Source: Methanobacteriota archaeon (GTDB lineage: Archaea; Thermoplasmatota; Poseidoniia; Poseidoniales; Thalassarchaeaceae). From it: a stretch of DNA of 64,000 bases. This document shows, piece after piece, positions 9,201 to 63,000 of this stretch. A model generated the notes under the pieces. The model searched no databases and had not been told where the DNA came from. It saw nothing but the letters and a program-made list of their open reading frames with translations. The stretch spans positions 5,911-69,910 of the forward strand of contig BPDA01000002.1 in the NCBI GenBank assembly GCA_019654055.1, in the 5' to 3' direction. How positions within the stretch are numbered: the stretch's first letter is position 1; each line of letters starts with the position of its first letter. Both the position numbers and the translations under genes were made by a program.

Positions 9201-9261
9201 CGAATCCGGGAACAAATCCATAGCCCCCCGGGCCCATCAGAAATCGTGGGAAAGCGGAACT

Positions 9262-15930: not shown

Positions 15931-16008
15931 AGCGGGTTGGAGTAGCCAGGTTATCTCGTCGGGCTCATAACCCGGAGACCGGTGGTTCAAATCCACCACC
16001 CGCTACCA
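15931..16008 (+). tRNA. tRNA-Met (CAT), initiator-type, with encoded CCA
   Basis: I folded the cloverleaf by hand. The acceptor stem is AGCGGGT/ACCCGCT with an A1:U72 pair. The anticodon stem has three G:C pairs next to the loop CTCATAA. The T arm is GGTGG-TTCAAAT-CCACC. It is 75 nt plus CCA. Confidence 0.9.
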
Positions 16009-29424: not shown

Positions 29425-29449
29425 TCGTCTGTAGCGTGAAGCGCGCGCT

Positions 29450-43259: not shown

Positions 43260-43454
43260 ATGGAGCCGCCCGAGACAATCGAGGAGGAGCTCGCCATCAT
43301 CGCCGAGGCGATAGACGCTGGCATAGACCCGTTTCCCACCGAAGAAAGAGCCCAGTGGATGGGCGAAGACAGCTCTTGGCTGGTTCATGATCATCATCAT
43401 GGTGAGTTGGGTCTCGCAGTTGCTTTACCGCTCTTTGTGACGCGGTTTTGGTAG
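43260..43454 (+). CDS. Questionable small acidic ORF
   Basis: The only support is an ATG 4 nt after the AKR stop and acidic composition. Its 3' end runs into the tRNA-Gln gene on the other strand. Confidence 0.2.
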   Translation: MEPPETIEEELAIIAEAIDAGIDPFPTEERAQWMGEDSSWLVHDHHHGELGLAVALPLFVTRFW

Positions 43455-43524
43455 TCCCTCCCGGATTCGAACCAGGGTCACGAGATCCAGAGTCTCGTAT
43501 GATGGACCACTACACTAAGGGACT
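43449..43524 (-). tRNA. tRNA-Gln (CTG) with encoded CCA
   Basis: I folded it by hand. The acceptor stem is AGTCCCT/AGGGACT. The anticodon arm is CGAGA-CTCTGGA-TCTCG. The T arm is CCTGG-TTCGAAT-CCGGG. It is 73 nt plus CCA. Confidence 0.9.
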
Positions 43525-51078: not shown

Positions 51079-51120
51079 AGCTCCTGAAGCCACCAACTCC
51101 TATGGAGTTGCTCAACTCAT

Positions 51121-54100
51121 ATGGGGCGAAGACATAAGAGACGACCGAAACTCCGGCTGAGCATGCTGCATACGTCTGAGTCTGCCCGAAATCGAACCAA
51201 GGAGGGCCGCACGGCCGTCTTCATGGTGCTGTTGATGCTGACCTCGCTGATGGTATCCCTAGTACCAGCCGTGAGTGCATCGCACATCACCCAATACGCG
51301 GTACAGCGCGACCCGGCCCATCTCACAGTGGGCGATCTGAACTGCGATGGCCACAACGACATAGTGGCTGTCAGCGTCATGGGGCACTACATCACGGCGC
51401 TGTACAACGACGGGCAGGGCAACTTCGCGGACAGGCAGGACGTGTTCATCTCGAACAACGATTCGCAGCGCGCTGGGTTCGTGGATACCGCTAACTCGGT
51501 CGACGTCGAGATTGCAGACATCGACGGCGACGGCGCTAATGACATCGTCTACTATCAAGAGAACATCAGGTTCGTCGGCGAGAGCTTCGTCCGACCTGGC
51601 AACCTGACCACGATGTGGGGCGATTGCTCTGAGAGGGTCAACCAGTGGGACGACACCGAGATTACGGTCTCCAACCCCTACCATCTGGGCATGGAGGTCG
51701 GCGACATAGATGAGGACGACAATGACGACATTGTTCTAATCACAATGGATGCCACAGCAACCAACCAGTACATCCAGATATACAGGGGGACCGACCCATC
51801 GCTACTGACCAACCAGCAGTCAATCCCCGTACCTCTGACCAATGGCATGTACGTCGAGACCCATCTGGGACATTGGGGGGAGACGGTACAGGGCAGCGGC
51901 ATACCTGGCGGTAGCTTGGGTGATTGCGAGGATTTGGACCTCTGGCTGCTCAGAACTCCTCCTTACAACACCGGAGTCGGGACTTCGGTCGGGCACTATG
52001 ACAACATGACCGTGCTCGAGTTCGACTGCATCACTAACCAGTATCCCAATCCCTTGGACGCAACAGCTCAGGGTATCCACGATTTCAAACTCGATGCCGA
52101 GCACAACTACCCCCTGTATGGACTTGACATAGCCGATACGAATGGAGACAACGAGATTGACCTAATCGCGGCAGTTGACGGCATCACTGGGAACATCTCC
52201 TACGCTACCCGGTCGGGCAGCAGTTGGAACACCCAGAACTACGTCTACTTGGGTGACTACCTCGGCGCATCAATCACCATTGTTGATGTAAATCAGGACG
52301 GCGAGGTGGACTTCTTCGTGCCCACCGAAGTCACACTAACCCGTCTGCAGGATTCATCAGCCCAGAACCAGACCTACCTTCTGCTGGAGAACCTACGAGA
52401 GATCAACTCGGTCGAGATTATTCTAGCCAATCCAAATGGCCCGGGATACCTCTCTTCACTTTCTTTCGACGTGGGTCGACGACCCACCATGGCCATACCT
52501 GGTCAGCTTCAGGGTGGCGATGACAGTGCCTACGAGATTATCATCGGCCAGCGAGACTACTCCTACAGGTTCTCCGACGGTGCTATGTGGCTGGACACCC
52601 AAGGATGGGCAGGGGCTGGCGACTTCCTATCTGTGTTAACTCTAGACAATGAGGATGTCGGCATCACTGGGGTGACGATTGCTCCAGCGTCGTACAACCC
52701 CGCTACCGGTCAGGCCGAGATAGGCGAGGGCACCAGATGGGTCAACGTGACCGTCAAGAACACCGGACTCAACCCCCTGACCGGATCCGTTGATGTGGAC
52801 CTCGAGGTCAAGGAGGTCCTCGGAGGCACCGACACCGTGGTCTACTCGAACGACTTCGAGGGCAATGAGGACACCACCAACTGCTCTAACTGCGTCTTCG
52901 CGAAGCACTCCTACACTGGTATGTACGGGACAGGAGCGTCCTCTTGGCACATAGAGACCAACTCCACCGCCGACACTCAGAACGTCTCATGGTACGAGGC
53001 CGATAGCAACCCTACCAACTATTACTGGGCGGGCATGGACTACAACGGCGACAACGAGAGCGACTCGGGTTACTACAACAACATGGATGAGGCACTGATT
53101 CTGGAAAACGTCGACCTGACCGGCGCCGATGCGGCGTACATGGACCTGTCAGTGATGTGCACCACGGCCTTCTTCGAGCTCTATCTGGCCGAGCAATACT
53201 CGGTGGTCGAGCGCTGGCTTTACGAGGACTCATGCGGCATTGAGGTGTGGACCGATGGAAACGGATGGGAGTCCGTGTTCTTCGCCGGCGGCTGGGACAA
53301 CGAGCGTTTCTTCCGTATCTACTACCAAGGCGTCGACCCCGAGTATAACACATACAATGGGAACTTCAACACCAACACCGCAACAGGTTGGCTGAATTAC
53401 ACCGAAGGAGGCGGGACGTCTCCCGACCCCGATGAGAGAGAATCAATCGACCTCACTAGGTACGCCGGACAGGTCGTCGACATCAGATTCCGATTCCGCA
53501 GCGGCCTAATGGGCTCAGTGGGGCCCGCTGGCTCCTCGCAGGACACCGGTCTGGATGGCTTCGCCTTCGACAACATCACCATCAGGAAGAGGGACGTGAC
53601 ATTCGGCACCACTGAGACCGTCAGCCAGACCCTGAACTTCAACAACTTCGCCGCGGGAGCATCCGAGGAGGTCGTACTGACCGCTGACTTCGTCGACAAC
53701 AGGACATACTACGTGAAGACCGAACTGACCAACCCAACCGGATTCACCAACATGGACGATCTGAATGACGAGATTAAGTTCCAGTTGACCGTAAACAACC
53801 TGTTCGACCCGTGTCTAGCCGAGGAGCATTGGGTCGATCTAGAGAATGGGGTCAGGTACGCCTCTGGCGAGCGCGAAATCAGGGTCAAGGCCCAGAACTG
53901 CGGGAACACCCTGACTGACTTCCAGTTGGAGGCGTTCATCCAGAACGCCGAACCCGACCTCATCGCCATCGAGGACTTCTCCGGCGTCGAGCCCATGTGG
54001 ACGGACGACGGCAACGAGAACGGCAGCAGGCTGGACGACTCCACCGGCTCGAACGACATGTTACCCCAGAACGTGGGCGTCTTCAACAGTCACGCCTACT

Positions 54101-57048
54101 GGCTGGGGCACCCGAGCGACGGGTACGGTGACAACTGGAACGAGACCATGACGCTGGACCCGATACCCGTAGCGTCAACCGGCGCCGACTTCACCTACCT
54201 AACCTTCGACTATTACGCGGAGGGAGACTACCTCAAGGACAGCGGCGGCAACATACTGGCCATCAGGGACGCTGCCAACCTGGAGATTACCTGGACCAAG
54301 GATGGAGAGGTGTATCAAGGGGTCGTTTACGGGACTTGGACTGACCTGAATGAGAACGGCATTCAGAACACCAACCCGGAGGACCCTAACTTCCATCGCT
54401 GCGAGGACTTCGACCTCAACGGCTACGACGAGGTCGAGTACTTCGGCGACCACTCGGATAACATCAACTCTGTGGTCTGGTTCGACTCCGAAAACATCCT
54501 CAAGTCAGTGACCGTCGACATGACCCACATAGTCATACTAAATCGCACCAGCGCGGATACCGGCGACTGGCGCGACGAGTGCACCACCCTCTCAGGGTCA
54601 GAGGTCACACTAACTTGGAGATTCCAGTCTAACGACGACGGAGTGAACGGCAACGCCGGTCTTTCCGGTTTCGGAGTGGACAACATCCGGGTAGAGGAGT
54701 TCACCTTCGAGGATGACGGCTCCTACACCGTCAATATCACTGGGCTTGATGCCGCCGAGAAAGAGATAGCCACCATGGCCACTCACGACTTCCAGAGCGG
54801 CATATACAAGATCGACGTGACAACCATCTTCGACAACACCGACCCCCTGACCTCCTGGTACAACGAGACCGAGGTCAACACCGCCAACAATCACTCGTCC
54901 ATCATCTTCAGTATCGCCAGCGCCGACATTACTCTGCTGCAGCCCGATGTGCTGGAGTGCGTGTCCGACATCACATACGAGTGCGTTTACCCCATAGATG
55001 ACGCATCGGCCCACAGCTTCGCTGTACCCCTGCTGAACGGCGTCATTGCCGGAGAGTACCAGATTACCATGAAGATAGTTGATCTGGACACGGGGCAGAC
55101 CGTCTACGAGGAGTCTAGCGACAACGGACCGTTCGACCTAGCCCCTCATCAGAGGGGGCAGGCCAACTGGACCAACCCGTACAACTCATGGTACGACGCG
55201 CACACCTACAACATCAGCTTCTACGCCGATTTGTTCCAGGAGGACGGGACCCTAGAGCCATCTGGCAACGACCGCTACTTCGAGATCCAGTTCTTCGAGA
55301 ACATCGATGTCGCGATCCTGTCCAACCCGACTGACCAGAACCGCCTCCAGAGCGTCAAGAAGGACCTCGAGGCGATGGGCAAGACGTACACCCAGCTGCG
55401 CACGGAGAACTGGGACACCTACGGGACGCCCGACTGGGTCGAGCACTTCAACAAGGTTCTGCTGCCATGGCAGACCGACTACAACGTCTACTACGGAGAG
55501 TACTACGAGTCGCTAGCGCAGACCCGCGACAGCGACGGACTCAGCTTGACCGAAACGCTCGAGGATTACATGAGCGGAGGTGGCACCGTGCAGATGCACC
55601 TAGGTCCATACCGCAACGAGTACCAGCCCAATAGGCTACCATTCGGCATGGATATAGCAATGAGGAACCAAGTCAACTTTACCGTGGACAATAGGGTTCA
55701 CTACAGCAACCTGTCTATCGTCGACCAGTACCATCCGATACTGAGCAACGTCGATCCGGTCGCCTTCAGCGGAATCAACGGCGGCTCACACATCGCCTTA
55801 GCCGGTTTGGATGCCGCACAGGTTCAATCGACGCAGATTCCACAGGTCTGCGGAGGACGCATCAGCGACCCCACTGGAACCTTCCACACGCTGATGCGCG
55901 ACACGGAGTTCGATACGCAGTCCCTACTCTCCGTTTGCAATCGTGGTGCAGGTGGTCTGATTGTGACCACTATCGATGTCGAGAACCCAAGCGTCTCAGA
56001 GGAGTACGGCGGCTCGAGCATACCCTTGCTGTCTAACATGCTGGCCTACCATCTCACTCCATACCCTACTGACTTCGGCATAGCCGGAGAGAGCTTCGAT
56101 CTAACCATCAACGGCGAGGCCCCCTCCATCGACACCGTCACTGGCGCCTATGCCACGATGTACATCAAGAGCAACTCCGACCTCGACTTCAGCTACGTCA
56201 CCTCTGTCGAGGGCGTCGTAGCAGATTGGACCCTAGAATCTGGGAACAACGACTCTGTGACCGGATGGGACGGCTCAATCATAGACGCAGGGGAGTACAG
56301 CCACACCCAGCAAATCAATCCGTCCATCCCGACGCTCGGCTCCTTCTGCGTCGGCGACTCCTCCTCAAACACGGGCTGCAGGATTGGCGCAGAGTGGTTG
56401 CTCACCCTGTACCTGCATGACGATGCAGGGCATACCCGCATGTCCTACATCCGCATGGTCACAGATGATACCCTGGCCGATGAGTTCAGACCCATTGCCA
56501 GCGCAATAATGGTCGAAGACGCCACCAGCAGCGAGTACGTCAGCCTAGACGGCACGAAGACGGTTGCCGGAGTGGACTGGCCAATCTACCGCGCTAGGCT
56601 GTCCGACACCGGCGACCTCAGCATATCGTTCGATGCCAGCGAGAGCTACGACCCGGATGCGCCCGAGGGCGAGAAGGGCATAGAGCTCTACGAGTGGAAG
56701 GTCTTCTTCGACTACCCGTGGGACAGCTCTGATCCGACCTTGGAGGGGCACGTGTTCCAGATTCCGGCAGCTGCCGGTGGAGAGGATTGGTCCTACGTCT
56801 TCAGGAACCTGACCGCCAGCCCTGACGGCAACCTCGAGAATGAGATCCGAATCGAGCTGATAGTCTACGACAAGGCGGGCAAGCAGAGCGAGAAGCACAG
56901 GATGTACTTCGTAGTCGTAGGAGAGGACTTCGGCGACGATGAGCCCATCGTGCAGTTCACCAACCCAGGTCCGAATGAGAACCAGAACGCCGATTTGGTC
57001 ACCATTACGGTACCCTCGTGTCTGGAGCGGAGAACGGGGACGTGGTAA
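51121..57048 (+). CDS. Giant FG-GAP/VCBS-repeat surface protein (about 1975 aa before the frameshift)
   Basis: A signal peptide FMVLLMLTSLMVSLVPAVSA is present. It has integrin-alpha-like Ca loops DLNCDGHNDIV, DIDGDGANDIV, DIDEDDNDDIV, DTNGDNEIDLI and DVNQDGEVDFF. CARDB-like segments (VNVTVKNTGLNPLTGSVDV) follow. Confidence 0.7.
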   Translation: MGRRHKRRPKLRLSMLHTSESARNRTKEGRTAVFMVLLMLTSLMVSLVPAVSASHITQYAVQRDPAHLTVGDLNCDGHNDIVAVSVMGHYITALYNDGQGNFADRQDVFISNNDSQRAGFVDTANSVDVEIADIDGDGANDIVYYQENIRFVGESFVRPGNLTTMWGDCSERVNQWDDTEITVSNPYHLGMEVGDIDEDDNDDIVLITMDATATNQYIQIYRGTDPSLLTNQQSIPVPLTNGMYVETHLGHWGETVQGSGIPGGSLGDCEDLDLWLLRTPPYNTGVGTSVGHYDNMTVLEFDCITNQYPNPLDATAQGIHDFKLDAEHNYPLYGLDIADTNGDNEIDLIAAVDGITGNISYATRSGSSWNTQNYVYLGDYLGASITIVDVNQDGEVDFFVPTEVTLTRLQDSSAQNQTYLLLENLREINSVEIILANPNGPGYLSSLSFDVGRRPTMAIPGQLQGGDDSAYEIIIGQRDYSYRFSDGAMWLDTQGWAGAGDFLSVLTLDNEDVGITGVTIAPASYNPATGQAEIGEGTRWVNVTVKNTGLNPLTGSVDVDLEVKEVLGGTDTVVYSNDFEGNEDTTNCSNCVFAKHSYTGMYGTGASSWHIETNSTADTQNVSWYEADSNPTNYYWAGMDYNGDNESDSGYYNNMDEALILENVDLTGADAAYMDLSVMCTTAFFELYLAEQYSVVERWLYEDSCGIEVWTDGNGWESVFFAGGWDNERFFRIYYQGVDPEYNTYNGNFNTNTATGWLNYTEGGGTSPDPDERESIDLTRYAGQVVDIRFRFRSGLMGSVGPAGSSQDTGLDGFAFDNITIRKRDVTFGTTETVSQTLNFNNFAAGASEEVVLTADFVDNRTYYVKTELTNPTGFTNMDDLNDEIKFQLTVNNLFDPCLAEEHWVDLENGVRYASGEREIRVKAQNCGNTLTDFQLEAFIQNAEPDLIAIEDFSGVEPMWTDDGNENGSRLDDSTGSNDMLPQNVGVFNSHAYWLGHPSDGYGDNWNETMTLDPIPVASTGADFTYLTFDYYAEGDYLKDSGGNILAIRDAANLEITWTKDGEVYQGVVYGTWTDLNENGIQNTNPEDPNFHRCEDFDLNGYDEVEYFGDHSDNINSVVWFDSENILKSVTVDMTHIVILNRTSADTGDWRDECTTLSGSEVTLTWRFQSNDDGVNGNAGLSGFGVDNIRVEEFTFEDDGSYTVNITGLDAAEKEIATMATHDFQSGIYKIDVTTIFDNTDPLTSWYNETEVNTANNHSSIIFSIASADITLLQPDVLECVSDITYECVYPIDDASAHSFAVPLLNGVIAGEYQITMKIVDLDTGQTVYEESSDNGPFDLAPHQRGQANWTNPYNSWYDAHTYNISFYADLFQEDGTLEPSGNDRYFEIQFFENIDVAILSNPTDQNRLQSVKKDLEAMGKTYTQLRTENWDTYGTPDWVEHFNKVLLPWQTDYNVYYGEYYESLAQTRDSDGLSLTETLEDYMSGGGTVQMHLGPYRNEYQPNRLPFGMDIAMRNQVNFTVDNRVHYSNLSIVDQYHPILSNVDPVAFSGINGGSHIALAGLDAAQVQSTQIPQVCGGRISDPTGTFHTLMRDTEFDTQSLLSVCNRGAGGLIVTTIDVENPSVSEEYGGSSIPLLSNMLAYHLTPYPTDFGIAGESFDLTINGEAPSIDTVTGAYATMYIKSNSDLDFSYVTSVEGVVADWTLESGNNDSVTGWDGSIIDAGEYSHTQQINPSIPTLGSFCVGDSSSNTGCRIGAEWLLTLYLHDDAGHTRMSYIRMVTDDTLADEFRPIASAIMVEDATSSEYVSLDGTKTVAGVDWPIYRARLSDTGDLSISFDASESYDPDAPEGEKGIELYEWKVFFDYPWDSSDPTLEGHVFQIPAAAGGEDWSYVFRNLTASPDGNLENEIRIELIVYDKAGKQSEKHRMYFVVVGEDFGDDEPIVQFTNPGPNENQNADLVTITVPSCLERRTGTW

Positions 57049-57590
57049 TCGAGGTCGCGCTGACTGAAGCCGTGCTCGACTACACCCCGACCCAGAAGAT
57101 TACCCAGAAGTCGATTGGCAAGTACAACGCCACAGGACTCTTGTCTGACAGTCAGCAGTTCACCATGACCTTGGACATCTCGGACCTCTATCAGGAGACT
57201 GGCATAGCCGCCACCATCTACGTGAAGATCAAGGAGGGCGATGGTGAGAGGCATACTCTCTACCAAGAGATAGGAATCACTCTGGTTCCTCGTCTCCCGG
57301 AGGTTGAGCCCACAGACGAAGGAGAGGGCATGAGCATGCTGCTCATCGGCGGCATCGGCGTGTTCGTACTACTACTCGTGGTAGTGGTCACGATGATGAT
57401 GCGTGGCCGAGGCAAGGATGACTCCGGTGAGGACACGGTCGAGCAGTTCGGAGGCGTCGAGGAGATGGACCCGGTCGAGGCCTATGTCCAGCAGATGGTG
57501 GCCTCGGGCTACGACGAGCAGACTGCTAGGACTTACGCTAAGCAGTACTACGCCCAGTATTACGAGGACCAACGCAAGGGCGGCGGTTGA
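57018..57590 (+). CDS. C-terminal part of the giant protein (-1 frame): last extracellular segment, TM anchor, cytoplasmic tail
   Basis: ADLVTIT(G)TLVSGAENGDVVIEV joins if one G is restored at 57009-57010. The TM segment is MLLIGGIGVFVLLLVVVVTMMM, followed by RGRGKDD and a tail. Confidence 0.55.
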   Translation: MSGAENGDVVIEVALTEAVLDYTPTQKITQKSIGKYNATGLLSDSQQFTMTLDISDLYQETGIAATIYVKIKEGDGERHTLYQEIGITLVPRLPEVEPTDEGEGMSMLLIGGIGVFVLLLVVVVTMMMRGRGKDDSGEDTVEQFGGVEEMDPVEAYVQQMVASGYDEQTARTYAKQYYAQYYEDQRKGGG

Positions 57591-57634: not shown

Positions 57635-58918
57635 GTGCAGACAGCGCTGCCCGTGGACACCTCCGGTCCGTACACAGTCACCGACATCTCCCTCGCTGAG
57701 GCGGGCGAGGCCAGGGTTTCGTGGGCCCGTAGCAGGATGCCGGCCCTCGCTGCCTTGAGGGCTGCCGCGGAGAGCGAGAAGCCTCTCACTGGCCAGCGCG
57801 TGGCAGGATGCCTACACGTCACCAAGGAGACCGCAGTCCTAATCGAGACTCTCAGGGCGGCTGGAGCAGAGGTGTCGTGGTCCGGATGCAATCCGCTCTC
57901 TACCCAGGACGATGTAGCCGCATGGTTGGCCAGAGAGGGCTACGACATCCATGCCTGGTACGGTCAGAGCACTGAGGAGTTCTACCGGTGTATAGACCGC
58001 ACCCTCGAGCTCAGACCGACTCTCACGCTGGATGACGGAGCAGATCTGATCTACCGCGTCCACAGCGACTTCCCGCAACTGGCGGATGGCATCCTCGGCG
58101 GGACCGAGGAGACGACCACCGGAGTCATACGGCTGCGGGCGATGGCCGAGGCAGGGGAGTTGCTGTACCCGGTGATTGCGGTGAACGATGCGGCCACCAA
58201 GTGGGACTTCGACAACGTGCATGGCACCGGCCAATCCACACTGGACGGAATCATCAGGGCCACCAGCGTACTACTCGCAGGCAAGGACTTCGTGGTCGCA
58301 GGTTACGGTCACTGCGGCAGGGGGCTGGCCGCGCGGGCTCGTGGCATGGGGGCCAATGTGATTGTTACCGAGGTCGACCCATTGCCAGCCCTGCGGGCTG
58401 TCATGGACGGCTTCCGAGTCATGAGGATGGACGAGGCAGCCACCTTGGGCGACATCTTCTGCACCGCCACCGGGATGAAGGACGTAATCGTGGGCAGGCA
58501 CTTCGACTCCATGAAGGACGGTGCGATAGTCTGCAACACCGGGCACTACGATTGCGAAATCAGTATACCTGACCTCGAGAAACGTTCCACCGACTGCCGC
58601 ACCATCAGAGAGAACAACGAGGCCTTCCGGATGGAAGACGGGCGTACGATTCACCTGCTGGCTAGGGGCCGCCTAGTCAACCTCGCTGCCGCCGAGGGAC
58701 ATCCCAGCGAGGTGATGGACATGTCGTTCGCCAACCAGTTCCTAGCCCTGTGCCGTCTGGCTTCCGAGGGTGGCGGCTACGACAACAGGGTCTACGACAT
58801 CAGTCCCGAGCAGGATACAGAGCTGGCCGCACTGAAACTCAAGACGGCCGGAATCAGCATCGATGAGCTGACGCCAGAGCAGATCTCCTACCTGAGCGAC
58901 TTCAGGGCCGGGACCTAG
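57635..58918 (+). CDS. ahcY: Adenosylhomocysteinase
   Basis: Motifs GCLHVTKETAVLIETL, DDGADL, the NAD-binding VVAGYGHCGRGLA and NLAAAEGHPSEVMDMSFANQ are present. The start codon is GTG. Confidence 0.9.
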   Translation: MQTALPVDTSGPYTVTDISLAEAGEARVSWARSRMPALAALRAAAESEKPLTGQRVAGCLHVTKETAVLIETLRAAGAEVSWSGCNPLSTQDDVAAWLAREGYDIHAWYGQSTEEFYRCIDRTLELRPTLTLDDGADLIYRVHSDFPQLADGILGGTEETTTGVIRLRAMAEAGELLYPVIAVNDAATKWDFDNVHGTGQSTLDGIIRATSVLLAGKDFVVAGYGHCGRGLAARARGMGANVIVTEVDPLPALRAVMDGFRVMRMDEAATLGDIFCTATGMKDVIVGRHFDSMKDGAIVCNTGHYDCEISIPDLEKRSTDCRTIRENNEAFRMEDGRTIHLLARGRLVNLAAAEGHPSEVMDMSFANQFLALCRLASEGGGYDNRVYDISPEQDTELAALKLKTAGISIDELTPEQISYLSDFRAGT

Positions 58919-59967
58919 TCCTCCAAAGGCTCCAACTCATCAGATGGCGGCTCCCCCCAGTCCGAGTCGCCTTCCTCGATTGTGAAATCCGGAATCTCGG
59001 GCTTCCATCTGATTGGCATTTTCTCCCCTGACTCGACCACGAGCTCCAGCCTCTCTGAGAGGGCCGGCATCCTCTGGCTGACCATGGCGTTGTACATCTT
59101 GCTGCCCCTGATTCCATCAGGGATGCACAGCTTGCCACTACTGGTCTCGCAATCTATGGCGCGGTCGAGGTCCAATGCATGCCTATTCAGCTTGTGCAGC
59201 AGTCCGGAGGTAACTTTCGAGAGCCCCATAAAGCAGGCCAAGATGAATACGAAGACCAGGATGAACCCCCAGGTCGTACCCCCTACCAGCGTCATCGCGA
59301 CGGTCCCAAGCAGGAACACTATCGGAGCGATGAAGGTGATTAGGAAGAAGGTCGGAGATATCGGCTTACGCTTCTTCATCCTCTCGATTATCGCCCAGCG
59401 CGGATGCTTGGGGTTCTGCGGCCTGAAAATCTCGTCCTTCTCCATCTTCGCCGCCCTCGATACCATCCTGTTAACCGATTCCATGCGAGCAAGCTGGTTA
59501 CTCGTCGTCGCTTCCATACCATCGCTGAAGAGCTCCTCTAGGAGTTCTGCACACTCCTCGTAATGACCCAGCCTCACCAGTATGGCGACTTGCTCTATCA
59601 AAGGGGCGACCTCGTTCGGAGCGATCTCTCGCCTGTCCTGCCACCACCTGAGCCCCTCTTCCAGCATTCCGAGGTGATCGACCAGCAGGACGCCCCCGAG
59701 CCTCCAGGCGTCAAAACTCTCCGGGTCAATCTTCACGACCTTCCGTAGAGCTGAGATTGCTTTCGCTGCCTGCTTGAGGCTCGGCATCTCCTGCCGCCCT
59801 CTGGTCTCAGCGGGCAGCGACCAGCGTGCCACACCCATCCACGCATCGGCGTGGTCGGGGTCTATCGCGACGGTTTCCCTAGCCGCTTCGAGGGCAGCGT
59901 CCCTGTCTCCGACTGCTCCGCCTCGACCGCGTCGAGCCAGACCATCTCGGCGCTCTTGGCCATGCAC
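58915..59967 (-). CDS. TPR-like / two-TM hypothetical protein
   Basis: A helical-repeat N-terminal half (DPDHADAW...KIDPESFDAW) is followed by the hydrophobic segments TFFLITFIAPIVFLLGTVAMTLV and WGFILVFVFILACFMGL. The start is uncertain. A GTG at 59967 avoids overlap with the upstream gene, and the ORF track extends to 60060. Confidence 0.45.
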   Translation of the reverse strand: MHGQERRDGLARRGRGGAVGDRDAALEAARETVAIDPDHADAWMGVARWSLPAETRGRQEMPSLKQAAKAISALRKVVKIDPESFDAWRLGGVLLVDHLGMLEEGLRWWQDRREIAPNEVAPLIEQVAILVRLGHYEECAELLEELFSDGMEATTSNQLARMESVNRMVSRAAKMEKDEIFRPQNPKHPRWAIIERMKKRKPISPTFFLITFIAPIVFLLGTVAMTLVGGTTWGFILVFVFILACFMGLSKVTSGLLHKLNRHALDLDRAIDCETSSGKLCIPDGIRGSKMYNAMVSQRMPALSERLELVVESGEKMPIRWKPEIPDFTIEEGDSDWGEPPSDELEPLED

Positions 59968-60008
59968 CCTGCTGCGGCTAGCAATCCATGAAGGCTGGGG
60001 TAGGAGAA

Positions 60009-60212
60009 TCAACGGCCCTTGCCGCCCCGCCCACCTCGGGATCGACCCTTGCCCTTCCAACCTTCCCGGAGATTGGGCCTGCGTTTCCTGCCCCGGGTGT
60101 TCCTTGACCCCTTGCCTTCGACCGGCTTTCTGGCGTCACAGCGGTTGCACTCGGTCCTACTGGCGAAATTGTGGTTACTGCAACTCGGGCAAGTCCAGTC
60201 CCCAGGTTTCAT
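60009..60212 (-). CDS. Gar1-zinc-finger gene, last fragment: third RanBP2-type zinc finger plus RG-rich tail
   Basis: KPGDWTCPSCSNHNFASRTECNRCDARKP fits W-x-C-x2-C-x3-N-x6-C-x2-C exactly. The tail is GRKRR...GRSRGGRGGKGR. Confidence 0.55.
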   Translation of the reverse strand: MKPGDWTCPSCSNHNFASRTECNRCDARKPVEGKGSRNTRGRKRRPNLREGWKGKGRSRGGRGGKGR

Positions 60213-60560
60213 ATTTGAATCTCTGAAACCACCTGAGTTACTAGATCGATGGCCACGAGAATTTCTGCCCCACCCCCACCTCTCGGTTTCGGCTCTTCAC
60301 AACCAGTTCGATTGCAGACTTTTTTGTTTGCATAATTGTGGTTTTTGCATTTGGGCAAACGCCAGTCCCCAGGCTTTTATATTTGAATCTCTGAAACCAC
60401 CTGAGTTACTAGATCGATGGCCACGAGAATTTCTGCCCCCACCCCCACCTCTCGGTTTCGGCTCTTCACAACCAGTTCGATTGCAGACTTTTTTGTTTGC
60501 ATAATTGTGGTTTTTGCATTTCGGGCAGCGCCAGTCCCCTGGCTTCATACTCGAGTCTCT
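60196..60560 (-). repeat. About 168-bp tandem repeat, 2 full copies plus a partial third, coding
   Basis: Copy A spans 60196-60362 (167 bp) and copy B spans 60363-60531 (169 bp). They are identical over their central roughly 140 bp except for one C in a homopolymer. The partial copy, from 60532, is more diverged. Confidence 0.85.
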
Positions 60561-60923
60561 GTCTCCCCCGAACTTACGTCCCCGGCCCCTCTGTTCGTTT
60601 CCTCGTCTACTGCCTGAGCGACTATCTCTTCCCCGTCTGAATTTACTCTCACCCGATCTCCTATCCTGTCGACCTCGATTGACCCTCCCGCGAGGAGCAA
60701 TCTCAACGGGTGAACCTATTGCGCTTACCGCATCTATGCTCTCGTTCAGAGGATGCACGTGGACGAGCGGCCCCTCAATCGGCCCCAACACAGTCTCCAC
60801 TCTCCCAAGCGTCTTCCCACCGGTGATCCGGATACCGGCCCCCAGCTTCGGTGCGCGACCTTCGAAGGAGATTAGGAGACCGCCTTCGTGCGACTCGCTG
60901 GACACTGTGCCAGAGAAGCTCAT
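60297..60923 (-). CDS. gar1: H/ACA RNP protein Gar1 core plus RG-rich region plus first RanBP2-type zinc finger
   Basis: The Gar1-like core is GGLLISFEGRAPKLGAGIRITGGKTLGRVETVLGPIEGPLVHVHPL. Then come RGRQDRRSGESKFRRGRDSRSGSRRG...RGRGRKFGGDR and then KPGDWRCPKCKNHNYANKKVCNRTGC. Confidence 0.65.
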   Translation of the reverse strand: MSFSGTVSSESHEGGLLISFEGRAPKLGAGIRITGGKTLGRVETVLGPIEGPLVHVHPLNESIDAVSAIGSPVEIAPRGRVNRGRQDRRSGESKFRRGRDSRSGSRRGNEQRGRGRKFGGDRDSSMKPGDWRCPKCKNHNYANKKVCNRTGCEEPKPRGGGGGRNSRGHRSSNSGGFRDSNIKAWGLAFAQMQKPQLCKQKSLQSNWL

Positions 60924-60926
60924 GGC

Positions 60927-62264
60927 TCAGCCGCGACGCCTACCATACATGAGGGCTACGACTGCGGCTGCCACCACCGAAGGGAGGCCGGCTGCAGGAA
61001 GCAGACCGCCATCATCCCCCTCTTCTTGAGGAGGCGCTACCACCGGCTCGGGCTCTTCGAAGAGGTGCGAGTTGTTCACACTCTGTGAGACCTCCGAGCA
61101 CTTCCCCGAGGAATCGCAGCCTTGGACTGAGACGATGTGCCCCCCTTCGCTCCAGAGCTCGAAGTTGATGCTAGGGGTCGACCACGTGTTCCCCGTCGAG
61201 CTCACCGAACCTGTCCGCGAGCCGTCTATGAACATCTCGAATTCGACTGACTCCCCGTCTGGGTCGCTGTACTGCCCCTGCATCGACCACTGTGACCCAT
61301 CCCATTCGGTATCGGTTATCGTCATCAATGGAGGTGAGGACTCCTTGACCAGGTCGATGTCATAGATGTGCTCCATCGGGTAAACATTCGAGTTTCCCGC
61401 AACTCTGACCCAGACGTCGACCTCGCCGGGCACGGTGTTCGATGCCGGTAGTTCCACCACCGCTTCGCCGGTGAAGGTGACTGTGACGGAGGGAGATGAC
61501 TGACCATCCTGATTCAGGCCGAGTTCGAGTTCTAACTCAGGCCACTCGGACGTGGGGGATATGGATATTGGATGCGGGTCGGAGAGAGTCGTCTCGGACG
61601 AGCTGATGGAGAACGGGACGCCGAGATTCCAGGTCCTCTCACCGGAGCTCTGCCCAGCAGGGTCGACTGCCTCGCAGGACACCTCTCCGGGGGCTCCTCT
61701 GGGAATCTCGGCCCACCACGATCGATCCGCCCCCTCAGTCAACTCTAGCGACGGGGCTCCGGTACAACTGATGTCTAGTTGGGAGACTCCGCCCTCGTCC
61801 GAGAACCATGAGGAAACCTCATCCCAATCCGCCCAGATGTGCTCGCCCCCACTCGGAGATGGGAACCAAGCACCGTCGATTGGGGCGCCATCAGTCCAGA
61901 CCGGGGGGTCATCGACGGGAATGGGCTGGGTGGTGAAATCCGCGAACAGGTCCTCCCCCAGTGGCCAATCCGCGAAATCCGCATCGGGCATCACGGTGAA
62001 CCTCAGGCTACCGTCGGAATTGACCTCGAGCGTGTGCGTAGAAGATCCATCCCCTAAGCAGGTCCCGCGAATCGGAGCAGGAATCGACGACTCCTCCTCG
62101 AAGCTCACGTCCCTGCCCTCGCACTCCTCCCACATATCCAGACGCAGGTCCTGAGTCACAGGGAAGTTGAACTCCAGACTCGCTCTAGTCATGTTCGAGG
62201 CGTTGAGGACGAGCGTGAACTGATTGCCGTCAACCACACCTGGAATTGTCATCGTCGAATTCAA
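60927..62264 (-). CDS. Secreted acidic protein with a C-terminal TM anchor, fragment 2
   Basis: It ends GGLLPAAGLPSVVAAAVVALMYGRRRG. It has no signal peptide of its own. Its frame is continuous upstream to the G7 run at 62407-62413. Confidence 0.5.
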   Translation of the reverse strand: MNSTMTIPGVVDGNQFTLVLNASNMTRASLEFNFPVTQDLRLDMWEECEGRDVSFEEESSIPAPIRGTCLGDGSSTHTLEVNSDGSLRFTVMPDADFADWPLGEDLFADFTTQPIPVDDPPVWTDGAPIDGAWFPSPSGGEHIWADWDEVSSWFSDEGGVSQLDISCTGAPSLELTEGADRSWWAEIPRGAPGEVSCEAVDPAGQSSGERTWNLGVPFSISSSETTLSDPHPISISPTSEWPELELELGLNQDGQSSPSVTVTFTGEAVVELPASNTVPGEVDVWVRVAGNSNVYPMEHIYDIDLVKESSPPLMTITDTEWDGSQWSMQGQYSDPDGESVEFEMFIDGSRTGSVSSTGNTWSTPSINFELWSEGGHIVSVQGCDSSGKCSEVSQSVNNSHLFEEPEPVVAPPQEEGDDGGLLPAAGLPSVVAAAVVALMYGRRRG

Positions 62265-62334
62265 CCAGAGTTGGACGCGGCACTCGTCGACGCCGTCAGA
62301 GGCAGGAATCGCTGTGTCGCAGTCCCGATTCTCG

Positions 62335-62955
62335 TCAGGTACGACGGGAACCTCTTCGCAGTCGTTTCCGAAGGCGGATGTGCAGTCCTTGATTTGCGAA
62401 TGTCCTGGGGGGGATGATGTTGAACTCCTCTATCTCGACTCCGTCCTCCTCCCAGCTGGTGTTCTTCCAACTGACACCCTCGCCGCCTCTGTGGTAGTCC
62501 CCGTCCCTAATTCCTATCCGAGTCAGAGTGTGCTCGATGCACTCGCTGGCCAGCGCTCTGAAGAGCTCGCGCTCATCAGTCGACAGCCAGCCGTCACCTC
62601 CGTCGTTCGGGTCGATCTCGGCCATGAACTCGTCCATGGTCACCCTGATGTCGTCGGCGAGAGTCGCGTTAATCCAAGCCACAGCACGGACATCGGCGGT
62701 CTGCCAGTCTGGACTGATGTCGAAAACGAACTCCGCCTTGGTGTATTCGAACATGTCTTCGAAGGTGATTGAGCCGCACTGGTCCTCCAGCGAACCGCCG
62801 CCTCCAAATTGCTCCATACGCAGCGGATCATCCTCGAGATATTCCTCACGCCATCCCTCGCTAGGAGATACCAGACTCGCCGTCAGCAGTAAGACGAGGG
62901 CGATGGAAGCGGTGGTCTGAACCCTCGTCATGGAAATTCTAGCGCAAGCGAGCAT
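62335..62955 (-). CDS. Same secreted protein, fragment 1 (signal peptide and N-terminal domain)
   Basis: The likely start is MTRVQTTASIALVLLLTASLVSPSEG at 62931. It joins fragment 2 as EEFNIIPP|GHSQIKDCTSAFGNDCEE. Confidence 0.5.
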   Translation of the reverse strand: MLACARISMTRVQTTASIALVLLLTASLVSPSEGWREEYLEDDPLRMEQFGGGGSLEDQCGSITFEDMFEYTKAEFVFDISPDWQTADVRAVAWINATLADDIRVTMDEFMAEIDPNDGGDGWLSTDERELFRALASECIEHTLTRIGIRDGDYHRGGEGVSWKNTSWEEDGVEIEEFNIIPPRTFANQGLHIRLRKRLRRGSRRT

Positions 62956-62984
62956 GATGATTCTATCGCCCTCATGAGAAGGAG

Positions 62985-63000
62985 TTTAGGGCAACCTAAA
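62985..63000. promoter_or_regulatory. Palindromic operator candidate 1: TTTAGG-GCAA-CCTAAA
   Basis: It is a perfect 6-4-6 inverted repeat in an AT-rich divergent intergenic region, upstream of a TATA-like tatat at 63016-63020. Confidence 0.45.

What the first reader, a model, noticed from the sequence alone, without database searches (positions are those of the whole stretch)
60009..60923. Archaeal Gar1 extended by Gly/Arg-rich domains and three RanBP2-type zinc fingers
The minus-strand ORF 60297-60923 opens with a recognisable Gar1 core (LGRVETVLGPIEGPLVHVHPL). It runs into an RG/RGG-rich stretch and then a W-x-C-x2-C-x3-N-x6-C-x(2-4)-C finger (KPGDWRCPKCKNHNYANKKVCNRTGC). A second copy (KPGDWRLPKCKNHNY...) and a third (KPGDWTCPSCSNHNFASRTECNRCDARKP, ORF 60009-60212) follow in other frames. 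The gene ends in another RG-rich tail. Repairing two homopolymer indels (T4 at 60375-60378, C4 at 60258-60261) joins everything into one protein of about 305 aa. Archaeal Gar1 is normally a single domain of about 75-100 aa. Flanking GAR domains are characteristic of eukaryotic Gar1, and RanBP2 fingers are mostly eukaryotic RNA/ubiquitin-binding modules. This is therefore an unusually eukaryote-like pseudouridylation RNP subunit.
Basis: partly seen in the sequence, partly recalled or inferred. Interest (0 to 1): 0.7.

Follow-up and report, generated by a model that had tools for sequence, protein, structure and literature searches.

The report
Archaeal Gar1 with RNA-binding zinc-finger tail
This is the Gar1 subunit of the RNA-guided pseudouridine machinery of a marine Group II archaeon, and it carries a long basic tail with three FUS/ZRANB2-like RNA-binding zinc fingers; the architecture is real and shared across the order Poseidoniales, while the frameshifts seen in this window are sequencing errors.

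Summary
On the minus strand at 60009-60923 lie a Gar1 core, RG-rich linkers and three RanBP2-type fingers arranged as a 168-bp tandem repeat, with finger 2 out of frame. The Gar1 identity is weak in Pfam (17 bits, cut-off 29.3). It is firm by profile-profile comparison (98.9%, E 1.5e-17) and by fold (AF2 pLDDT 91; the top 18 PDB matches are all Gar1/Naf1, TM up to 0.83).

An intact 304-aa version, 97% identical, exists in another metagenome. More than 100 intact homologues with 0-4 fingers occur in both families of Poseidoniales (MGIIa and MGIIb). The frameshifts are artefacts: the window has single-base indels, mostly homopolymer-length changes, in four consecutive genes relative to near-identical contigs, and a subtilase gene is split 30 kb away. 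The Cys-to-Leu change in finger 2 comes from a second, compensating pair of indels.

The fingers belong to the ssRNA (GGU)-binding ZRANB2/FUS subclass, and the RNA-contact residues are 98-100% conserved in 125 distinct fingers. Sister lineages carry true RGG repeats, giving an RGG-ZnF-RGG layout like that of FET proteins. No description was found in the literature; IMG auto-annotates both parts and NCBI calls the protein hypothetical. I rate it a new variant of a known kind, of moderate interest. Function in the H/ACA RNP and RNA binding are inferred, not shown.

The parts
60009..60923 (-). Whole gene: Gar1 with a C-terminal zinc-finger/RG arm. It is 304 codons plus a TGA stop at 60009-60011 once four single-base indels are corrected. 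As written, the reading frame stops early at 60297-60299.
   Evidence: Intact orthologues P0002 (304 aa, 97% identity) and P0008/P0010 (306 aa). DNA alignment to L001, L002 and L003.
60690..60923 (-). Gar1 core, residues 1-78. It is a small beta-barrel with the G-R-V-E-T-V-L-G-P signature.
   Evidence: Pfam Gar1 17-18 bits, below the cut-off of 29.3. NCBIfam Gar1 equivalogs are the top hits, E about 1e-3. A family profile searched against PDB gives Gar1 as the top five hits. hhalign against canonical archaeal Gar1: 98.9%, E 1.5e-17, 75 columns. AF2 pLDDT 91.3. The top 18 Foldseek matches are all Gar1/Naf1, TM 0.75-0.83, rmsd 2.2 A.
60549..60689 (-). Linker 1, residues 79-125. Disordered and basic: 32% Arg, 21% Gly, 15% Ser, with ten RG/GR dipeptides and no RGG.
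   Evidence: Composition. AF2 pLDDT below 50 for residues 79-124.
60453..60548 (-). Zinc finger 1 (MKPGDWRCPKCKNHNYANKKVCNRTGCEEPKP). RanBP2-type, with a C-x4-C second knuckle.
   Evidence: Pfam zf-RanBP profile positions 1-23 of 30, 24 bits for the 208-aa ORF that holds only this finger, which is below the cut-off of 27. Best PDB matches are the FUS ZnF 6g99 and ZNF265/ZRANB2 1n0z and 2k1p. AF2 pLDDT about 80.
60378..60452 (-). Linker 2 (RGGGGGRNSRGHRSSNSGGFRDSN). It ends at the A4 run (T4 on the + strand, 60375-60378) that holds the +1 indel.
60269..60376 (-). Zinc finger 2, readable only in the +1 frame. It contains a compensating pair of indels (an extra base in 60357-60359 and a missing base at 60349/60350) that turns the first Cys into Leu. 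It ends at the G4 run (C4 on the + strand, 60268-60271) that lacks one base.
   Evidence: Repeat unit 2 is 95% identical to unit 1 at the DNA level.
60213..60268 (-). Linker 3, a copy of linker 2, back in frame 0.
60123..60212 (-). Zinc finger 3 (MKPGDWTCPSCSNHNFASRTECNRCDARKP). Canonical W-x-C-x2-C-x3-N-x6-C-x2-C.
   Evidence: Pfam zf-RanBP 45.4 bits, profile positions 1-29 of 30. Best single-domain PDB matches are FUS 6g99 (33 bits) and ZNF265 1n0z (31 bits). The ZRANB2-type RNA-contact residues D4, N14, F17, R20 and N24 are all present.
60012..60122 (-). C-terminal basic tail, 37 residues: 27% Arg, 30% Gly, 14% Lys. It ends ...RSRGGRGGKGR.
   Evidence: pLDDT below 50 for residues 270-304.
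60167..60561 (-). 168-bp tandem repeat (finger plus linker, 56 codons) that underlies the variation in finger copy number.
   Evidence: TRF. Unit identities. The period is exactly 168 with no gaps in L001. Homologues carry 0-4 fingers.

Best explanation
The locus encodes the Gar1 protein of a Thalassarchaeum-like (Marine Group IIb, Poseidoniales) archaeon.

The first 78 residues form the Gar1 beta-barrel. By homology, this barrel sits on the catalytic domain of the pseudouridine synthase Cbf5 in the box H/ACA RNP and governs the Cbf5 thumb loop, and so controls substrate loading and product release.

The remaining 226 or so residues are an accessory arm built like beads on a string. Three independently folded RanBP2-type zinc fingers of the ZRANB2/FUS single-stranded-RNA-binding subclass are separated by disordered, strongly basic RG/RS-rich linkers. 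The arm ends in an RGG-containing tail, and its calculated pI is about 11.5.

The most likely role of the arm is to give a subunit that normally does not touch RNA a multivalent, low-specificity grip on single-stranded RNA with G-rich (GGN-type) triplets. That would tether the RNP to, or concentrate it on, (pre-)rRNA or other substrates and modulate substrate turnover, much as the RGG domains of eukaryotic Gar1 are thought to do.

Finger number (0-4 across the order) changes by gain and loss of 168-bp repeat units.

The two frameshifts and the Cys-to-Leu change in this window are sequencing or assembly indels, not biology.

Shown here: the architecture, the fold, conservation across the order, conservation of the RNA-contact residues, and the artefactual nature of the frameshifts. 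Inferred: membership in the H/ACA RNP, RNA binding and its specificity, and the effect on catalysis.
For: Gar1 identity
- hhalign of the family profile against canonical 75-101-aa archaeal Gar1 gives 98.9%, E 1.5e-17 over 75 columns. Ten of those 11 canonical proteins match Pfam Gar1.
- The family profile searched against PDB gives four Pyrococcus Gar1 chains and yeast Gar1 as the top five.
- The AF2 model has pLDDT 91.3. Its top 18 Foldseek matches are Gar1 or Naf1, best 2ey4/2hvy at TM 0.83 and rmsd 2.2 A.

One real gene
- P0002 is an intact 304-aa protein, 97% identical, and 120 listed homologues exist.
- The DNA alignment shows that only single-base indels separate the window from intact genes.

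Frameshifts are artefacts
- Window-specific indels, supported by the two independent contigs L002 and L003 wherever both cover the site, also break the upstream 675-aa gene (62403) and the downstream TPR-like gene (59908). One supported by L003 alone breaks the giant FG-GAP gene (57007). All these genes are intact in relatives.
- A subtilase gene is split at about 28.5 kb, between Pfam profile positions 135 and 137.

Distribution
- 104 relatives were found in GTDB species genomes. The best 80 are Poseidoniales, apart from two contigs binned in bacterial MAGs.
- Both families are named among the members: Thalassarchaeaceae and Poseidoniaceae.
- Among 82 loci there are 30 with no finger, 25 with two, 15 with three and 1 with four.
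- The gene trio around Gar1 is conserved.

Finger subclass
- The best single-domain PDB matches are FUS 6g99, ZNF265/ZRANB2 1n0z/2k1p/3g9y, TAF15 and RBM5.
- The ZRANB2 RNA-contact positions listed in PMC6384913 are conserved in 125 distinct fingers: D4 98%, N14 99%, F/Y17 100%, R/K20 100%, N24 98%.
- In an alignment of three-finger members the finger residues are invariant while the linkers vary.

Modular arm
- In the full-length AF2 model the fingers have block-mean pLDDT of about 70-82 and the linkers are below 50.
- Sister lineages have true RGG repeats around the fingers: P0139, P0214, P0207, L030.

Established knowledge
- Archaeal Gar1 does not contact the guide RNA and controls the thumb loop and turnover. 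The RGG domains of yeast Gar1 alter substrate turnover and probably touch substrate RNA (PMC8096250).
Against: - Sequence similarity to Gar1 is below the curated thresholds of Pfam (17-18 bits against 29.3) and NCBIfam (19 bits against 107-156).
- I could not check that Poseidoniales genomes lack a second, canonical Gar1. I also could not check that they encode Cbf5, Nop10, L7Ae and H/ACA guide RNAs. None lies in the window or in 923 kb of fetched loci by motif scan, and Rfam finds only two tRNAs in the window.
- The gene neighbours (a secreted protein and a TPR-like protein) give no functional link to RNA modification.
- About 30 of 82 species have no finger at all, so the fingers are dispensable for the core function.
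- Fingers 1 and 2 have Lys instead of Arg at position 20, Tyr at position 17 and an unusual C-x4-C knuckle. Their RNA specificity may therefore differ from GGU.
- The number of fingers in this particular genome is uncertain. Its two closest longer relatives (L002, L003) have two fingers, and four of the indels cluster in unit 2.
Confidence: 0.7

Rival explanations
1. The gene is a true pseudogene or a truncated allele in this organism. In that case the frameshifts are real, and the cell makes a 208-aa Gar1 with one finger and a garbled end.
For: As written, the frame stops at 60297-60299. Four indels cluster in one 168-bp unit, and one finger Cys is lost. Proteins with 0 or 1 finger exist in other species, so a shorter arm is tolerated.
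Against: The indels sum to zero, so finger 3 and the tail return to the original frame. Selection would not maintain that downstream of a real stop. The same kind of single-base indel breaks the three neighbouring genes and a subtilase 30 kb away, and all are intact in contigs that are 91-98% identical. Unit 2 is otherwise 95% identical to unit 1.
Confidence: 0.06
2. The protein has a Gar1 fold but is not the H/ACA subunit. It would be a lineage-specific paralogue, for example a free RNA-binding or chaperone protein or a Naf1-like assembly factor, while a canonical short Gar1 elsewhere in the genome serves Cbf5.
For: The core is divergent and falls below the curated Gar1 thresholds. Naf1 shares the fold and appears among the Foldseek matches. 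The gene context is unrelated to RNA modification. Absence of a second Gar1 was not tested.
Against: The best fold and profile matches are archaeal Gar1 rather than Naf1, over the full domain length. The gene appears to be single-copy, syntenic and present across the order, as expected of the orthologue. The profile search of 1.84 billion representatives goes straight from the Poseidoniales forms to canonical short Gar1 proteins of unnamed source, with no intermediate class. IMG assigns it to the Gar1 COG.
Confidence: 0.12
3. The fingers do not bind RNA. They would mediate protein contacts (ubiquitin-like SAMPs or small GTPases, as in the NZF and Nup153/RanBP2 fingers) or bind DNA.
For: RanBP2-type fingers include ubiquitin-binding and Ran-binding subclasses. 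Whole-protein PDB ranking puts RanBP2/Nup358 first, because it sums eight repeats. Some fingers with RNA-type residues fail to bind RNA in SELEX (PMC6384913).
Against: The best single-domain matches are the RNA-binding FUS and ZRANB2 fingers. All five RNA-contact positions are 98-100% conserved. Positions 13-14 are K/N/S followed by N, not the T-F of NZF (my own knowledge of the NZF motif). The fingers are embedded in RG/RGG tracts, which are typical RNA-binding accessory sequences.
Confidence: 0.07
4. The middle finger is an assembly artefact. The real gene in this strain would have two fingers, and unit 2 would be a mis-joined or mixed consensus of repeat reads.
For: The closest longer contigs L002 (97.5-98% nt identity) and L003 (91-93%) have two fingers. 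Four of the indels fall within unit 2, far above the background of about one per 1.2 kb. Its start looks like a mosaic of the unit-1 and unit-2 variants seen in L001.
Against: An independent assembly (L001, 97% nt identity) has a clean three-unit gene with a period of exactly 168. Three-finger genes are common in the genus. Short-read assemblers tend to collapse such repeats rather than expand them, so the two-finger contigs may be the collapsed ones (inference).
Confidence: 0.15

Closest known systems
Archaeal Gar1 of the box H/ACA RNP (e.g. Pyrococcus furiosus Gar1; PDB 2ey4, 2hvy, 2rfk, 3mqk)
   Same: Same beta-barrel fold over the whole domain (TM 0.83, rmsd 2.2 A). Colinear profile match including the G-x-V-x-x-V-x-G-P signature. 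Some canonical members also end in a short basic or RG tail (P0240).
   Different: About 22% identity, and below the curated Pfam and NCBIfam cut-offs. It carries a C-terminal arm of about 226 residues here (about 65-380 across the order) with 0-4 zinc fingers, whereas canonical proteins are 75-101 aa in total.
Eukaryotic Gar1 (yeast Gar1p, human GAR1/NOLA1) with GAR/RGG domains
   Same: A Gar1 core plus Gly/Arg-rich disordered extensions. In sister Poseidoniales lineages the extension contains true RGG repeats (P0139, P0214, L030). The likely role is the same: accessory RNA contact that modulates substrate turnover (PMC8096250).
   Different: The extension is only C-terminal, not on both sides. 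In this window's protein it is RG/RS-rich with only four RGG. It contains zinc fingers, which eukaryotic Gar1 lacks. The core is closer to archaeal Gar1 than to eukaryotic Gar1. Arginine methylation is unknown here.
FET proteins (FUS, EWS, TAF15) and ZRANB2: RanBP2-type ssRNA-binding zinc fingers flanked by RGG tracts
   Same: These fingers give the best single-domain matches. They share the D4, N14, aromatic-17, R20 and N24 RNA-contact set. The RGG-ZnF-RGG layout is shared, and the tandem fingers on flexible linkers resemble ZRANB2.
   Different: There is no RRM, SR or prion-like domain. The fingers are attached to an RNP core subunit. The internal fingers use a C-x4-C second knuckle with Tyr17 and Lys20. 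The host is a prokaryote without splicing of the GGU-containing 5' splice sites that ZRANB2 recognises.
Naf1 (eukaryotic H/ACA assembly factor with a Gar1 domain)
   Same: Same fold class, with Foldseek matches to 2v3m and 2eqn. It is a Gar1-fold protein with long disordered extensions.
   Different: The match is weaker than to Gar1 proper (TM 0.57-0.60 against 0.83). Naf1 is not known in archaea (my own knowledge). No sequence-level Naf1-specific features were seen.

Membership tests
Gar1 (Pfam PF04410; archaeal H/ACA RNP subunit, NCBIfam PRK13149 models) | Sequence match to the curated family model at or above its cut-off | tested here: not met
   Pfam Gar1 gives 17.2-18.2 bits against a cut-off of 29.3, E 0.002-0.004. 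NCBIfam Gar1 equivalogs give 12-19 bits against cut-offs of 103-156. The intact relatives P0002 and P0136 also score 17 bits, and the Poseidoniaceae members are not detected at all.
Gar1 (Pfam PF04410; archaeal H/ACA RNP subunit, NCBIfam PRK13149 models) | Remote homology to canonical Gar1 over the full domain | tested here: met
   hhalign of A2 against A5 gives 98.9%, E 1.5e-17, 75 of 82 columns, 36% identity of consensus. The A5 members are Pfam Gar1. The profile searched against PDB gives Gar1 as the top five. The profile search of 1.84 billion representatives reaches canonical Gar1 at E 1e-6 to 1e-3.
Gar1 (Pfam PF04410; archaeal H/ACA RNP subunit, NCBIfam PRK13149 models) | Gar1 beta-barrel fold | tested here: met
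   AF2 gives pLDDT 91.3 and pTM 0.81. The top 18 Foldseek PDB matches are all Gar1/Naf1; best are 2ey4_D and 2hvy_B at TM 0.77/0.83 and rmsd 2.2 A.
Gar1 (Pfam PF04410; archaeal H/ACA RNP subunit, NCBIfam PRK13149 models) | Binds Cbf5 and is part of an active H/ACA RNP | not testable with these tools
   This needs biochemistry or a complex model. No Cbf5 sequence from this organism was available.
Gar1 (Pfam PF04410; archaeal H/ACA RNP subunit, NCBIfam PRK13149 models) | Is the only Gar1-fold gene of the genome (orthologue rather than paralogue) | not tested
Whole Poseidoniales genomes could not be read.
RanBP2-type zinc finger (Pfam PF00641) | Curated profile match and the W-x-C-x(2,4)-C-x3-N-x6-C-x2-C pattern | tested here: met
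   The repaired protein scores 63.9 bits with three stretches. Finger 3 alone scores 45.4 bits and P0002 scores 75.6 bits, against a cut-off of 27. Finger 3 fits the pattern exactly. Fingers 1 and 2 fit up to the third Cys and then have C-x4-C; finger 1 alone scores 24 bits.
ssRNA-binding subclass of RanBP2-type fingers (ZRANB2, FUS/EWS/TAF15, RBM5/10) | RNA-contact residues D4, N14, aromatic 17, R19/R20 and N24 (numbering of PMC6384913) | tested here: met
   Finger 3 has D, N, F, S19/R20 and N, the same pattern as FUS. Fingers 1 and 2 have D, N, Y, N19/K20 and N. Across 125 distinct fingers these positions are 98-100% conserved, with R or K at position 20. The best single-domain PDB matches are FUS and ZRANB2.
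ssRNA-binding subclass of RanBP2-type fingers (ZRANB2, FUS/EWS/TAF15, RBM5/10) | Zinc-dependent binding of GGU/GGN single-stranded RNA | not testable with these tools
   This needs EMSA, SELEX or NMR.
Eukaryotic-type GAR/RGG domain | A long tract (about 50 aa or more) dominated by repeated RGG/RG, present on both sides of the Gar1 core | tested here: not met
   There is no N-terminal tract. The C-terminal segments are 21-32% Arg and 21-33% Gly, but the window's protein has only four RGG in all, interspersed with Ser, Asp and Asn. Relatives do meet the C-terminal part of the criterion (P0139, P0214, L030).
Eukaryotic-type GAR/RGG domain | Arginine methylation of the RG tracts | not testable with these tools
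   This needs proteomics. The presence of a PRMT in Poseidoniales was not examined.

The most novel reading that the evidence does not exclude
Poseidoniales, an abundant non-Asgard archaeal order, independently evolved a 'nucleolar-style' H/ACA subunit. In this reading its RGG-ZnF-RGG arm does more than bind substrate. It would drive multivalent, condensate-like clustering of the pseudouridylation machinery on nascent rRNA. That would be a prokaryotic analogue of the GAR-domain-dependent organisation of the eukaryotic dense fibrillar component, with finger number tuned by repeat expansion. A weaker form of the same reading is that the FET/ZRANB2-type finger was exchanged between marine eukaryotes and these archaea.
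Probability: 0.12. Interest if true: 0.85.

Novelty: new variant of a known kind. Interest (0 to 1): 0.55.

Why it matters
Gly/Arg-rich extensions on Gar1 and fibrillarin are usually presented as eukaryote-specific additions to an archaeal core (PMC8096250, PMC9957100). Here a whole order of very abundant marine archaea has added a long RG/RGG arm to Gar1, and in most lineages also one to four FUS/ZRANB2-type RNA-binding zinc fingers.

This provides a natural series, from 0 to 4 fingers and from RG-poor to RGG-rich tails, for testing what such arms do for an H/ACA RNP. The tests could address substrate capture, turnover and clustering, in a system without a nucleolus, without splicing and probably without arginine methylation.

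There are two practical points. Pfam and NCBI annotation misses the Gar1 domain in the whole family, so the proteins are filed as 'hypothetical' or 'zinc finger protein'. The repeat-rich gene is also often frameshifted or collapsed in assemblies, as in this window.

Tried and rejected
- **Real pseudogene or programmed frameshift.** Rejected because the same kind of indel breaks neighbouring and distant genes, and relatives are simply in frame.
- **Ubiquitin-binding (NZF) or Ran-binding finger.** Rejected on residue pattern and on the best single-domain matches.
- **Other parts of the machinery nearby.**
  - Rfam at gathering thresholds found only two tRNAs in the window and no H/ACA sRNA.
  - Motif scans of the window and 923 kb of fetched Poseidoniales loci found no fibrillarin or Cbf5.
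  - No other finger lies in the window.
- **Gene context.** The conserved neighbours (a secreted protein of about 670 aa with no Pfam match, a TPR-like protein and AdoHcy hydrolase) give no functional clue.
- **Literature.** Four searches combining Gar1, RanBP2/zf-RanBP, archaea, Poseidoniales, zinc finger, RGG and zinc ribbon found no description of this architecture. The one paper on Poseidoniales-specific protein families does not mention it.
- **Taxonomy of the canonical short Gar1 hits.** This could not be obtained, because the clusters carry no organism names.
- **Not attempted.**
  - I did not build a tree to decide whether fingers were gained once or several times, because the 80-aa core and 30-aa fingers carry too little signal.
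Full report
**1. What is in the sequence**

On the minus strand, ORF 60297-60923 (208 aa) begins MSFSGTVSSESHEGGLLISFEGRAPKLGAGIRITGGKTLGRVETVLGPIEGPLVHVHPL.... It continues into an Arg/Gly/Ser-rich stretch and a finger, KPGDWRCPKCKNHNYANKKVCNRTGC. A three-frame translation shows a second finger in the +1 frame (KPGDWRLPKCKNHNY...). It also shows a third finger plus a basic tail back in the original frame (ORF 60009-60212).

Tandem Repeats Finder reports one array at 60167-60561 with period 169, 2.4 copies and 91% matches. The anchors GGGGACTGG are spaced 169 and then 167 nt apart, which is two 168-nt (56-codon) units carrying a +1 and a -1. Deleting one A of the A4 run (T4 at 60375-60378 on the + strand) and adding a G to the G4 run restores a 304-codon ORF.

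**2. The frameshifts are artefacts**

The repaired protein has an intact counterpart, P0002 (304 aa, 97% identity, 100% coverage), on an independent metagenome contig.

The window was aligned at the DNA level to that contig (L001) and to a 5.7-kb contig with a two-finger gene (L002, 97.5-98% identity). Within the gene, the indel differences are confined to four single-base events in repeat unit 2:
- +1 at about 60375
- +1 in 60357-60359
- -1 at 60349/60350
- -1 at 60268-60271

The middle pair is what turns the first cysteine of finger 2 into leucine.

The same comparison, repeated with the GTDB representative L003 (Ca. Thalassarchaeum sp., 91-93% nt identity), shows window-specific single-base indels in the neighbouring genes too:
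- 59908 (GGG to GG) breaks the downstream TPR-like gene. In L002 that gene reads MAKSAEMVWLDAVEAEQSGDRDAALEAARE....
- 62403 splits the upstream gene, which is 675 aa in L002, into two ORFs.
- 62843/62846 is a compensating pair in that same upstream gene. It was seen only in the comparison with L002.
- 57007 splits a gene of more than 2100 aa encoding an FG-GAP protein. It could be compared with L003 only, because L002 does not reach that far.

These genes are intact in relatives. Thirty kilobases away, a subtilase is split exactly between Pfam S8 profile positions 135 and 137.

The rate of about one frame-breaking indel per 1.2 kb, mostly in short homopolymers, is the signature of an error-prone consensus and not of gene decay. 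The indels in the Gar1 gene also sum to zero, which selection would not maintain downstream of a real stop.

The clustering of four indels in unit 2 suggests a poorly resolved repeat. Whether this strain has two or three units therefore remains open, because L002 and L003 have two and L001 has three.

**3. Is the N-terminal domain Gar1?**

Curated models say 'not quite'. Pfam Gar1 gives 17-18 bits (cut-off 29.3), and the NCBIfam Gar1 equivalogs are the top hits but lie far below their cut-offs.

I built a 20-sequence alignment of the first 82 residues from diverse homologues (A2). Three lines of evidence then agree:
- Its profile finds four Pyrococcus Gar1 chains and yeast Gar1 as the top five of the PDB, with weak E-values of 0.04-0.5, colinear from residue 5.
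- Searched against 1.84 billion representative proteins, it recovers 133 proteins, ending in canonical 75-101-aa archaeal Gar1. Ten of 11 of those match Pfam Gar1, and hhalign between the two alignments gives 98.9% probability, E 1.5e-17 over 75 columns.
- AlphaFold2 on A2 gives a confident small barrel (pLDDT 91.3, pTM 0.81). Its 18 best Foldseek matches in the PDB are all Gar1 or the Gar1 domain of Naf1, led by archaeal Gar1 in the Cbf5-Nop10-Gar1 and full H/ACA RNP crystals (2ey4, 2hvy; TM 0.83, rmsd 2.2 A).

The domain is therefore a divergent but genuine Gar1 fold of the archaeal type.

**4. The arm**

The rest of the protein has a calculated pI of about 11.5 and consists of the following segments:
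- Linker 1: 47 aa, 32% Arg, 21% Gly, ten RG/GR dipeptides, no RGG.
- Finger 1.
- A 24-aa linker, RGGGGGRNSRGHRSSNSGGFRDSN.
- Finger 2.
- The same linker again.
- Finger 3.
- A 37-aa tail ending RSRGGRGGKGR.

A full-length AF2 model of P0002 shows the barrel and three separately folded fingers (block-mean pLDDT about 70-82). The linkers at residues 79-124, 159-180, 215-236 and 270-304 are below 50, giving a beads-on-a-string layout.

Pfam zf-RanBP scores 63.9 bits on the repaired protein, 45.4 bits on finger 3 alone and 75.6 bits on P0002.

Single fingers searched against PDB sequences hit best, as single domains, the RNA-bound FUS finger (6g99) and ZNF265/ZRANB2 (1n0z, 2k1p/3g9y). TAF15 and RBM5/10 follow. 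Nup153/RanBP2 and the ubiquitin-binding fingers score lower per domain.

The study of De Franco et al. (PMC6384913) lists the ZRANB2-ZF2 residues that contact GGU: D4, N14, the stacking aromatic at 17, R19/R20 and N24. Finger 3 has D, N, F, S/R and N, the same pattern as FUS and EWS, which lack R19. Fingers 1 and 2 have D, N, Y, N/K and N, and a C-x4-C second knuckle.

Across 125 distinct fingers of the family these positions are 98-100% conserved, with R or K at position 20. Internal fingers are mostly of the C-x4-C type, and the last finger is mostly C-x2-C. In an alignment of three-finger proteins the finger residues are invariant while the linkers vary.

This is the pattern expected of fingers kept for RNA binding. 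Binding itself is inferred.

**5. Distribution**

- A scan of one genome per GTDB species found 104 relatives. The best 80 are all Marine Group II / Poseidoniales MAGs or SAGs, apart from two contigs binned in bacterial MAGs, which is probable mis-binning. The closest is Ca. Thalassarchaeum sp. (96% aa identity in the core).
- Reading the genes in those loci gives 30 with no finger (145-166 aa: core plus a basic R/K/G/S tail of about 65-90 aa), 25 with two, 15 with three, one with four, and several cut by contig ends or N runs.
- Among the 120 best database proteins the counts are 7 with one finger, 67 with two, 30 with three and 2 with four.
- The exhaustive profile search adds a second, more distant group (MF.G.VE..SHEGGLL...). 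Its members are named Ca. Poseidoniaceae, that is MGIIa.
  - They have 0-4 canonical fingers at 90-100 bits and long tails, up to 461 aa in total.
  - The tails hold true RGG repeats, for example P0139 ...RRGGYGDRRGGGGGYRGGGDRRGGGGGYRGGGD... and P0214 (GDRRG)n.
  - MGIIb-O1 genomes also have such repeats (L030, L037).

The RGG-ZnF-RGG layout recalls the C-terminal half of FET proteins.

Canonical archaeal Gar1 proteins are short, but some end in a basic or RG tail of 10-26 aa (P0240). The Poseidoniales arm therefore looks like an elaboration of an existing feature.

Units 1 and 2 are 95% identical at the DNA level in the window, and 93% with no gaps in L001, while unit 3 is about 60% identical. 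This fits recent gain and loss of units by unequal recombination.

The gene order [secreted protein of about 660-680 aa]-[Gar1]-[TPR-like protein] is conserved down to 46% Gar1 identity. It gives no functional hint.

**6. How it most likely works**

By homology, the core docks on Cbf5 and controls the thumb loop and product release. Archaeal Gar1 does not touch the guide RNA (PMC8096250). The arm adds several weak single-stranded-RNA binding sites: fingers predicted to hold G-rich triplets, plus RG/RGG tracts.

I infer that the arm tethers or concentrates the RNP on rRNA precursors or other substrates and tunes substrate exchange. This parallels the effect of the yeast Gar1 RGG domains, whose removal changes single- and multiple-turnover rates and which probably touch substrate RNA.

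Because a third of species lack fingers, the fingers are accessory. The tail, in contrast, is present in all complete Poseidoniales members examined.

The following were not tested: whether this is the only Gar1 in these genomes, whether it binds Cbf5, and whether the fingers bind RNA.

**7. Comparison and novelty**

The protein passes the fold and remote-homology tests for Gar1 and the profile test for RanBP2-type fingers. It fails the curated Gar1 cut-offs. In this particular protein it also fails the definition of a classical two-sided GAR domain.

It works like a Gar1 with a FET/ZRANB2-style RNA-binding appendage. The core is archaeal, so the eukaryote-like traits are add-ons that arose by convergence or domain acquisition. 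A probable eukaryotic multi-finger protein shares the C-x4-C knuckle variant (P0115), but I could not test for transfer.

Four literature searches found no description. NCBI calls the proteins 'hypothetical' or 'zinc finger protein', and IMG's automatic annotation gives 'Gar1 / Zn-ribbon'.

I rate it a new variant of a known kind, of moderate interest. It is a clean natural experiment on what RGG and zinc-finger arms do for an H/ACA RNP, in one of the ocean's most abundant archaeal groups. It remains a domain-architecture finding whose function is inferred.

Noticed in passing
window 57007; 59908; 62403; 62843/62846; about 28500: Single-base indels relative to contigs that are 91-98% identical break several genes besides Gar1. 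These are the giant FG-GAP protein (ORFs 51088-57048 and 56979-57590), the TPR-like gene downstream of Gar1, and the 675-aa secreted protein upstream (ORFs 62335-62955 and 60927-62264). A subtilase is also split between Pfam S8 profile positions 135 and 137 (ORFs 28444-29496 and 27488-28570). The window looks like an unpolished, indel-prone consensus, so other 'split genes' in it should be read with that in mind.
   Followed up: partly
window 60927-62985 (-) and 58915-59984 (-); L002, L083-L086: The gene trio [secreted protein of about 660-680 aa with no Pfam match, a signal peptide and a hydrophobic C-terminal anchor ending ...LPSVVAAAVVALMYGRRRG]-[Gar1-ZnF, 4-nt gap]-[TPR-like protein of about 330-370 aa] is conserved in MGIIb down to 46% Gar1 identity. 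AdoHcy hydrolase lies next to it only in the closer relatives. The reason for the linkage is unknown.
   Followed up: partly
L035 (PBUF01000091.1) and L079 (NZUH01000006.1): Two contigs carrying a typical Poseidoniales finger-less Gar1 are deposited in MAGs labelled Gammaproteobacteria bacterium RS465 and Flavobacteriaceae bacterium NAT90. This is probable mis-binning.
   Followed up: no
P0053, P0185, P0056/P0057 (public protein sets): Public collections hold frameshifted or truncated calls of this gene. P0053 shifts frame in the A6 run of finger 1. P0185 reads the RGG repeats out of frame as (AEAEVETDAAAAEAVMVAVDTV)n. P0056 and P0057 are finger-only fragments. The repeat-rich gene is a recurrent trouble spot for assembly and gene calling.
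   Followed up: no
P0115 (527 aa, JGI), P0088, P0119: Multi-finger (6-10) RanBP2-type proteins, with low-complexity (in two of them Met/Gln/Gly-rich) linkers, were pulled in by the fingers. They are probably of eukaryotic origin. P0115 uses the same unusual C-x4-C second knuckle (CNRRTC..PKP) as the internal Poseidoniales fingers. This may be a lead on the origin of that finger type.
   Followed up: no
P0240, P0235, P0230, P0233 (canonical archaeal Gar1, 89-101 aa): Some canonical short archaeal Gar1 proteins end in a short Arg-rich, partly RG-rich tail, for example ...PRPRRGRGRRPGRGKRPGRRRRGGRK. A basic tail on Gar1 is therefore not strictly eukaryote-specific. The source organisms are not named.
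   Followed up: partly
window 15931-16005 (+) and 43452-43524 (-): Two tRNA genes are the only Rfam matches at gathering threshold in the 64-kb window. No H/ACA or C/D sRNA was detected.
   Followed up: no
window 9181-10017 (+): An ORF with several CxxC pairs has a weak Zn_ribbon_TFIIB match (28.6 bits) and predicted membrane segments. It is unrelated to the Gar1 fingers.
   Followed up: no
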